A stretch of DNA of 63,929 bases, filler included, from an uncultured Methanosarcinales archaeon (GTDB lineage: Archaea > Nanobdellota > Nanobdellia > Woesearchaeales > CAZKBD01): NCBI GenBank assembly GCA_964550945.1. It is 5 parts of 5 records of this genome, joined end to end, with 100 filler letters (N's around TTAATTAATTAA, not from the genome) between each part and the next. Parts side by side here need not be neighbours in the genome. Positions count along the whole stretch, not along the records: positions 45,034 to 59,745 come from CAZKBD010000045.1; 4 more parts are not named here. One strand, given 5' to 3'. The translations under genes and the position numbers were made by a program. The stretch's first letter is position 1. Each line of letters starts with the position of its first letter. The notes beneath the pieces are model-generated. The model searched no databases, had not been told where the DNA came from, and saw only the letters and a program-made list of their open reading frames with translations. Below are positions 14,040 to 45,214 of this stretch, piece after piece.

Positions 14040-14236
14040 GGGCTCGTAGCTCAGCCTGGTTAGAGCGCTGGTCTTATATGACCACGCTTTATGCAACTAA
14101 GACAGCCAGCGGTCGAGGGTTCAAAACTTAGGGACTGCACCCTAAAGGTACCGGCAGTCAAGTGGGACATTCCTCACTTTGTTCGGAAGTCCCACGAACT
14201 TGATGCAATCCCTTTGCGAAAGTCCCTTCGAGCCCA
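14040..14236 (+). tRNA. tRNA-Ile(UAU) with 37/38 intron (14079-14103) and 97-nt 59/60 intron (14126-14222)
   Basis: Acceptor GGGCTCG/CGAGCCC, stem CTGGT/GCCAG, CTTA/TAAG BHB; splicing restores GAGGG-TTCAAAT-CCCTT. Confidence 0.88.
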
Positions 14237-44804: not shown

Positions 44805-44921
44805 AAAAAATTTTAACAACAATGGCAGCGGCGAGGCAGGGGAACCCCTGTGGGATGCCGAGCAGGGCATTTTGCAAAGCAAAATGACCGTCGCCTGCCA
44901 TTTTTGTTGTTAAAATTTTTT
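44805..44921. repeat. Long imperfect inverted repeat with internal hairpins (MITE-like)
   Basis: AAAAAATTTTAACAACAATGGCAG/CTGCCATTTTTGTTGTTAAAATTTTTT enclosing CAGGGGAACCCCTG and CATTTTGCAAAGCAAAATG. Confidence 0.7.
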
Positions 44922-45033: not shown

Positions 45034-45170
45034 CATGATTTAAGGAAGCTCACTTCTTGATTGAACTTCTCACCTACGTCTTCAGCGTATTGAGCTATAG
45101 CATCGCTATAAGTGCTCTCCTTAGCCGAAGGCCGGATTTAAAATTCCTTCTCAGGCTGAGCTACCGTCCC
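45034..45170 (-). tRNA. tRNA-Phe(GAA), 3'-truncated, with at least three non-canonical introns (45121-45151, 45090-45111, 45039-45070)
   Basis: Splicing at three BHB motifs gives GGGACGG-TA-GCTC-AGCCTGGGA-GAGC-A-CTACG-CT-GAA-GA-CGTAG-GTGTC. Confidence 0.87.
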
Positions 45171-45214
45171 ATTAGTATCATAGAATTAGTAAATAGTTTA
45201 TAAATATTATTGTT

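What the first reader, a model, noticed from the sequence alone, without database searches (positions are those of the whole stretch)
45034..45170. tRNA-Phe with three clean BHB introns before the T arm even begins
Seen (minus strand): helices AGCC/GGCT, GAGC/GCTC and TAGG/CTTA, each with two 3-nt bulges and intron stems GAAGG/CCTTC, TATAGC/GCTATA and GAAGTTCA/TGAGCTTC. The contig breaks 3 nt into the T stem. Established: three introns is about the reported maximum for archaeal tRNAs. Inference: the break may be caused by a fourth, repeat-filled T-loop intron like those in Ile and Glu.
Basis: partly seen in the sequence, partly recalled or inferred. Interest (0 to 1): 0.72.

Follow-up and report, generated by a model that had tools for sequence, protein, structure and literature searches.

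The report
Truncated three-intron tRNA-Phe gene, DPANN archaeon
This is the front two-thirds of a phenylalanine tRNA gene from a tiny uncultured archaeon, interrupted by three short inserts that are predicted to be enzyme-spliced introns and cut off by the end of the assembly; related genes carry none to five such inserts, so it is a good example of a known oddity, not a record.

Summary
Real gene, modest novelty. Window 45170-45034 (minus) is tRNA-Phe(GAA) positions 1-51 with inserts at 18/19 (31 nt), 27/28 (22 nt) and 46/47 (32 nt). The joined exons match intron-less orthologues, and each insert has a 4-bp central helix plus intron stem (0-1 of 100,000 shuffles). Only intron 1 is a strict two-bulge hBHBh'; introns 2 and 3 are relaxed HBh'. 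The 3' end was not found in the assembly or in the runs laid. A fourth, T-arm intron is about even odds (7 of 13 orthologues with the same three sites; 18 of 34 tRNA genes of this genome). A repeat-filled one causing the break is unlikely: the contig stops 8 nt short of 59/60, depth is about 3, and all four long T-loop introns here were assembled through. Three is not the maximum: 9 four-intron and 3 five-intron Phe orthologues were found, a 2026 preprint reports five in Asgard archaea, and this scan noted four to six on other DNA. Open point: the single EndA appears to lack the known specificity loops.

The parts
45152..45170 (-). Exon 1, tRNA positions 1-18 (with 17a): acceptor 5' strand, D-stem 5' strand, D loop to G18
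   Evidence: Sequence; identical start in Phe orthologues
45121..45151 (-). Intron 1 at 18/19, 31 nt, strict hBHBh' (central helix 4 bp, intron stem 5 bp, exon helix 3 bp)
   Evidence: site used in 34 of 87 distinct orthologues, a count inflated by the search pattern; intron-less junction in a contig of run X6
45112..45120 (-). Exon 2, positions 19-27
45090..45111 (-). Intron 2 at 27/28, 22 nt, relaxed HBh' (intron stem 6 bp, no exon helix)
   Evidence: site used in 22 of 87 orthologues
45071..45089 (-). Exon 3, positions 28-46, anticodon GAA at 45083-45081
   Evidence: Sequence; identical in L149
45039..45070 (-). Intron 3 at 46/47, 32 nt, HBh' with one closing exon pair (intron stem 8 bp)
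   Evidence: 26 of 33 columns identical to the 46/47 intron of L149; site used in 17 of 87 orthologues. Its 3' boundary rests on the helix and on homology: a free-end profile alignment misplaced it
45034..45038 (-). Exon 4, cut by the contig end: positions 47-51, the first three bases of the T stem
   Evidence: the intron-less orthologue L056 has the same acceptor and the same first three T-stem bases
45197..45204 (-). TATA-box-like element about 30 nt upstream, likely the tRNA promoter (inferred)
   Evidence: Lies in a 17-nt block identical in L149
45215..45631 (-). Single-stranded-DNA-binding (RPA/SSB-like) gene directly upstream; conserved neighbour of tRNA-Phe
   Evidence: best hits below curated cut-offs; found by tblastn in many Phe loci including L149, L133, L201, L211
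44934..45033 (.). Artificial N and linker spacer between unrelated contigs C44 and C45; not a sized gap in the gene

Best explanation
The sequence is the 5' 52 exon bases of a tRNA-Phe(GAA) gene with three inserts at 18/19, 27/28 and 46/47, which are likely cut out by the genome's single splicing endonuclease (EndA) and likely joined by RtcB, and the gene is probably complete in the cell and merely cut by a low-coverage contig end. Shown: the exon and insert layout, the helices, matching intron-less orthologues, one EndA gene and one RtcB gene in the assembly. Inferred: transcription from the upstream TATA-like box; cleavage two bases into each 3-nt bulge; stepwise rather than simultaneous splicing, because the central helices use the same bases as the D stem (22-25) and anticodon stem (41-44). 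Intron 1's helix forms best right after it is transcribed and intron 2's is stable throughout; intron 3's would need the anticodon stem open or capture by the enzyme. A short fourth intron in the T arm has about even odds.
For: Exons: an intron-less orthologue differs at 1 of the first 49 exon bases (read); a contig of run X6 runs without insert across junctions 1 and 2 exactly as predicted; L149 shares the acceptor, promoter block and intron 3 and is complete with four introns. Helix nulls 0-1 of 100,000. In orthologues, inserts placed without BHB scoring (helix used only to choose among equivalent placements) fall in a canonical class (4-bp helix plus a flank of 2 bp or more) in 103 of 136 cases; all 13 loci with four or five introns are called tRNA-Phe by ARAGORN after in-silico splicing. 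Genome context: 32 of 34 complete tRNA genes found in G000 carry inserts, 5 carry three. EndA at C4:40416-40988, RtcB on C85. No second Phe gene was found. Break: pieces identical to the window have depth 2.6-3.6 and stop at 45055-45056 in runs X1 and X3.
Against: No RNA was seen, so splicing is not shown. The 3' third of the gene was not recovered. At equilibrium only intron 2's helix is predicted in the fragment; intron 3's stays at 0.05 even with the other two removed, and low values also occur in complete orthologues. Two of three motifs are relaxed, while the EndA shows no CSL-type insertion (10 residues shorter than 2cv8) and its loop before the catalytic His equals M. jannaschii 1a79 in length; PMC5829648 (passages) found a loop-less enzyme inefficient on relaxed motifs. 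X1 and X3 may be the source samples, so they are not independent.
Confidence: 0.88

Rival explanations
1. One reading: a long, repeat-filled T-loop intron follows and caused the assembly break.
For: T-arm inserts are common: 18 of 34 complete genes in G000, 7 of 13 published orthologues with the same three sites. A relative in run X3 that shares introns 1 and 2 seems to have a 59/60 insert, judged from a 30-letter loose end. Four G000 genes have 89-110-nt T-loop introns.
Against: The contig ends 8 nt before 59/60 and holds none of such a repeat. All four long T-loop introns were assembled through, have 1-2 blastn hits each counting self, and none lies within 50 nt of a contig end. 27 of 28 T-arm introns in Phe orthologues are 15-42 nt. 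Depth is about 3.
Confidence: 0.06
2. The locus is a 5' remnant or pseudogene left by an integration event, and the working tRNA-Phe lies elsewhere.
For: The 3' part is unseen. G000 holds other tRNA 5' fragments, such as C5:22796. tRNA genes are integration targets (PMC3293823, passages).
Against: Exons show no decay, the promoter block and upstream ssb gene match the normal Phe locus, and no other Phe gene was found in a 92% complete assembly.
Confidence: 0.04
3. A split or permuted gene whose 3' piece is encoded elsewhere and joined in trans.
For: The 3' piece is missing next to the gene; split tRNAs are known in Nanoarchaeum (PMC4033280, passage).
Against: No matching 3' piece among 19 exact acceptor-complement hits or the wobble hits, read by eye. 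All 90 distinct parsed orthologues are colinear, although the parse could only find colinear genes. The sequence simply ends at the contig edge.
Confidence: 0.02

Closest known systems
Multi-intron tRNA genes of Asgard archaea (Freyrarchaeaceae, Jordiarchaeaceae, Atabeyarchaeaceae; PMC11291895; bioRxiv 10.64898/2026.10.13.758758)
   Same: Nearly all tRNA genes interrupted, many non-canonical sites, missed by standard finders, up to five inserts per gene; the preprint's example is a three-insert tRNA-Phe(GAA).
   Different: Different phylum. Most of those genomes have two EndA paralogues (44 of 60), whereas one gene was found here and in 10 of 10 relatives. The preprint's main text does not mention DPANN or Woesearchaeota.
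Multi-intron tRNA genes of Thermoproteales (Pyrobaculum calidifontis and others; PMC4033280, PMC8450103)
   Same: BHB introns at non-canonical positions, up to three per gene.
   Different: Spliced by an (alpha-beta)2 EndA with the Crenarchaea-specific loop, which the enzyme here lacks; orthologues here reach four and five.
Disrupted tRNA genes of DPANN archaea with alpha4 EndA bearing the L3 loop, and ARMAN-2 with epsilon2 EndA (PMC5829648)
   Same: Same superphylum by inference; that paper predicted unidentified disrupted tRNA genes in such lineages.
   Different: The loop before the catalytic His is 9 residues here, as in M. jannaschii, and 6 shorter than in N. equitans. I could not see the paper's figure 7, so whether it counts this short loop as L3 is open.

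Membership tests
Archaeal tRNA-Phe(GAA) | GAA anticodon in a 7-nt loop on a 5-bp stem, 4-bp D stem, conserved U8, A14, G18-G19 | tested here: met
   Joined exons
Archaeal tRNA-Phe(GAA) | T arm and paired acceptor stem with discriminator | tested here: inconclusive
   Beyond the contig end; not recovered. Present in close orthologue L149
Archaeal BHB (EndA-spliced) intron | 4-bp central helix between the exon before the 5' cut and the intron before the 3' cut, with at least one flanking helix | tested here: met
   3 of 3 inserts; class definitions as in the preprint's methods passage
Strict hBHBh' motif | Both bulges closed, by an exon helix and an intron helix | tested here: not met
   Met by intron 1 only; introns 2 and 3 have 0 and 1 exon pairs
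Archaeal BHB (EndA-spliced) intron | Insert absent at the same junction in orthologues | tested here: met
   29 intron-less of 87 distinct orthologues; X6 contig across junctions 1 and 2
Archaeal BHB (EndA-spliced) intron | Removal from the RNA by EndA and ligase | not testable with these tools
   No RNA holder listed; enzymes present
Broad-specificity EndA ((alpha-beta)2, epsilon2, or loop-bearing) | Second subunit, or an L1, L2 or L3 loop insertion | tested here: inconclusive
   One gene only; no insertion by length against 1a79, 2cv8, 3iey; L3 boundaries not seen; assembly 92% complete
Split or permuted tRNA | 3' piece at another locus or upstream, with complementary leaders | tested here: inconclusive
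   None found in the assembly, which is incomplete

The most novel reading that the evidence does not exclude
Woesearchaeota-like archaea gain and lose tRNA-Phe introns so fast that one genus spans zero to five, and they splice these relaxed, non-canonical introns with a single homomeric EndA that has none of the known specificity-loop insertions. That would break the rule that only loop-bearing endonucleases handle such introns; this gene, with two relaxed introns and perhaps a fourth, is a ready substrate to test it.
Probability: 0.4. Interest if true: 0.6.

Novelty: new member of a known kind. Interest (0 to 1): 0.3.

Why it matters
By itself a truncated three-intron gene is ordinary for this lineage. 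It matters as one more sign that standard tools miss most tRNAs here (12 found by Rfam and by ARAGORN against 34 complete genes by intron-aware parsing). The orthologue series gives two testable handles: near-identical exons with zero to five introns inside one genus, for how introns arrive and leave, and a loop-less single-subunit EndA facing relaxed introns, for what sets splicing specificity.

Tried and rejected
Extending the contig end failed: runs X1, X3, X5, X6 laid on the window and X1, X3, X6, X8 laid on L149 gave no piece beyond 45055; an exact 40-nt scan of metagenome contigs found nothing. No RNA holder listed. ARAGORN at a relaxed threshold was noise. A T-loop intron pattern in G001 and G272 matched no more than its reversed control (43 against 78, and 77 against 96), so other tRNA types in relatives were not surveyed. 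The Phe profile invents inserts in short-D-loop Phe genes, fragments and non-tRNA matches: 89 of 180 loci were dropped at score 70 or below, 4 of 18, and 15 of 105 (6 duplicates, 9 faulty parses, one of them also a duplicate). Equilibrium folding gave no clean splicing order for complete orthologues. A second EndA subunit was not found. TIGR03280 was my recalled guess for TiaS and is labelled otherwise, so it is not used. Supplementary Data 4 of PMC11291895 was not reached: the archive was cut and the search hit only EndA rows; per-gene intron counts there, and the closed supplements of the preprint, may bear on the published maximum.

Full report
What is there. The window is five contigs joined by N spacers; 45034 is the first base of G000:C45. 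On the minus strand the gene reads exon 1 45170-45152, intron 45151-45121, exon 2 45120-45112, intron 45111-45090, exon 3 45089-45071 with GAA at 45083-45081, intron 45070-45039, and five last bases 45038-45034. Cutting two bases into each 3-nt bulge joins positions 18/19, 27/28 and 46/47. ARAGORN and Rfam see only a tRNA-Val in the window.

Is it more than chance. Each insert has a 4-bp central helix and an intron stem of 5, 6 or 8 bp; shuffled introns reached that in 0, 1 and 0 of 100,000 trials. Independent of the motif, orthologues confirm the junctions: a contig of run X6 crosses junctions 1 and 2 without inserts, an intron-less Phe gene differs at 1 of the first 49 exon bases (read), and L149 has the same acceptor, the same promoter block and a 46/47 intron identical in 26 of 33 columns. 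The fragment folds only slightly better than shuffles (z -2.05), and at equilibrium only intron 2's helix forms (0.0, 0.94, 0.0); intron 1's reaches 0.8-0.9 in the transcript prefix that ends with it, intron 3's stays at 0.06 or less. The missing 3' third limits these folds.

Organism and machinery. G000 is unnamed. Most named records sharing the first 19 bases are Woesearchaeota, Nanoarchaeota or Aenigmatarchaeota, and named Woesearchaeota loci share the upstream ssb gene (L055 71%, L045 64%), so a Woesearchaeota-like DPANN archaeon is inferred. The best DNA holders are groundwater metagenomes, possibly the source. My intron-aware scan found 34 complete tRNA genes (acceptor 7 of 7 pairs): 2 without inserts, 14 with one, 13 with two, 5 with three, 18 with a T-arm insert; a few parses are imperfect (Leu-UAA, Ala-UGC, one Leu on C5), and two further genes fell outside the filter. 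One EndA gene and one RtcB gene are present. Ten of 10 relatives searched also have one EndA match; in the 10 of 11 proteins that my script extracted, the loop before the catalytic His is 9 residues, the same in genomes whose Phe gene has zero or five introns. That equals M. jannaschii 1a79 and is 6 shorter than N. equitans 3iey; the Crenarchaea-specific loop of 2cv8 is absent.

The missing end. No acceptor complement behind a T loop was seen elsewhere in G000 (by eye), and neither read-laying run nor the metagenome scan extended the contig. Pieces identical to the window have depth 2.6-3.6 and stop at 45055-45056. A repeat at 59/60 would be expected to stop an assembly at or inside the repeat (inference); this contig stops 8 nt before it. 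The four long T-loop introns of G000 (89-110 nt) were all assembled through, and 27 of 28 T-arm introns in Phe orthologues are 15-42 nt. Low coverage is the simpler cause. Whether a short fourth intron exists is open: 7 of 13 published orthologues with sites 18, 25 or 27, and 46 have one (8 of 16 with unpublished genomes).

Orthologue series. Pattern scans gave 44, 119, 17 and 15 loci. After the drops listed under Tried and rejected, 90 distinct complete genes remain, 87 without unpublished genomes: 29 with no intron, 20 with one, 13 with two, 13 with three, 9 with four, 3 with five. The pattern selects for the 18/19 intron and targeted an intron-rich family, so these are not frequencies. Five introns: L170, L133 (same gene as L211, G461) and L201 (G449); a fourth case, L184/L204, rests on unpublished G315 and is not needed for any claim; L191 and L192 (three introns) are unpublished too. 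Four introns include L180 of G001, the first-ranked relative. In genus g222 the 10 of 13 genomes that matched carry 4, 3, 5 (G315), 2, 1, 2, 0, 1, 3 and 5 introns. The 3' half of L149 is matched without differences over 126 nt by a contig of run X6, which may be its source.

Comparison with what is known. PMC4033280, PMC8450103 and PMC3293823 give three as the archaeal maximum (passages); PMC3728597 gives three for a red alga (passages). PMC11291895 reports 92-95% of tRNA genes with introns in three Asgard genomes (passages; its Supplementary Data 4 not reached). bioRxiv 10.64898/2026.10.13.758758 reports up to five in a single Asgard gene and finds EndA permissive rather than causal (abstract, passages, sections 2.1, 2.6 and 3; supplements closed). 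PMC5829648 links loop-bearing EndA to disrupted tRNAs in DPANN (passages and a supplement search). Seven searches listed no paper that, by title and abstract start, describes four- or five-intron tRNA genes in Woesearchaeota; the library lacks most subscription papers. Earlier notes of this scan report four to six introns in Woesearchaeota tRNA genes, Phe included, on other DNA, and T-loop introns in this genome; these are unchecked leads, one of which sent me to the Asgard papers and lowered my novelty score.

Verdict. A real, likely functional three-intron tRNA-Phe gene cut by a contig end; a new member of a known kind, below the counts seen in its relatives. Interest 0.3. The one open surprise is the apparently loop-less single EndA.

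Noticed in passing
window 14040-14236 (+): tRNA-Ile with anticodon UAU and inserts at 37/38 (25 nt) and 59/60 (97 nt). No TiaS_FLD match in G000 (92% complete). That this pairing is known in some DPANN archaea is recalled, not checked.
   Followed up: partly
L093, L133/L211, L180 (4/5) and L109, L154, L170, L201 (3/4): Acceptor-stem introns whose central helix uses 2-3 bases of the 5' leader, so they would have to be spliced before leader removal.
   Followed up: partly
G000:C162:2002-2068 and the end of G000:C75: Another tRNA gene cut by a contig end inside its anticodon-arm region; C75 begins with an uninterrupted T arm whose acceptor strand could pair with it. The link is my inference.
   Followed up: partly
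L196:231-1788 (G000:C4): The EndA gene lies head to head with ribonuclease Z.
   Followed up: no
G000:C14 and C77 (near C77:985): Two near-identical stretches ending in a T-loop-like and acceptor-like sequence with no recognisable tRNA 5' half.
   Followed up: no
G000:C5:22796 and C21 near 20370: Short tRNA 5' fragments resembling neighbouring Lys and Thr genes, possible integration remnants.
   Followed up: no
window 44818-44900: A GC-rich inverted repeat with AT-rich outer arms at the end of the neighbouring, unrelated contig C44 (read by eye).
   Followed up: no
L020; L042 and L181: A two-intron archaeal tRNA-Phe with the ssb neighbour sits in a record titled Armatimonadota, likely mis-binned; L042, titled Methanosarcinales, has the same gene as G078 of the window's order.
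   Followed up: no
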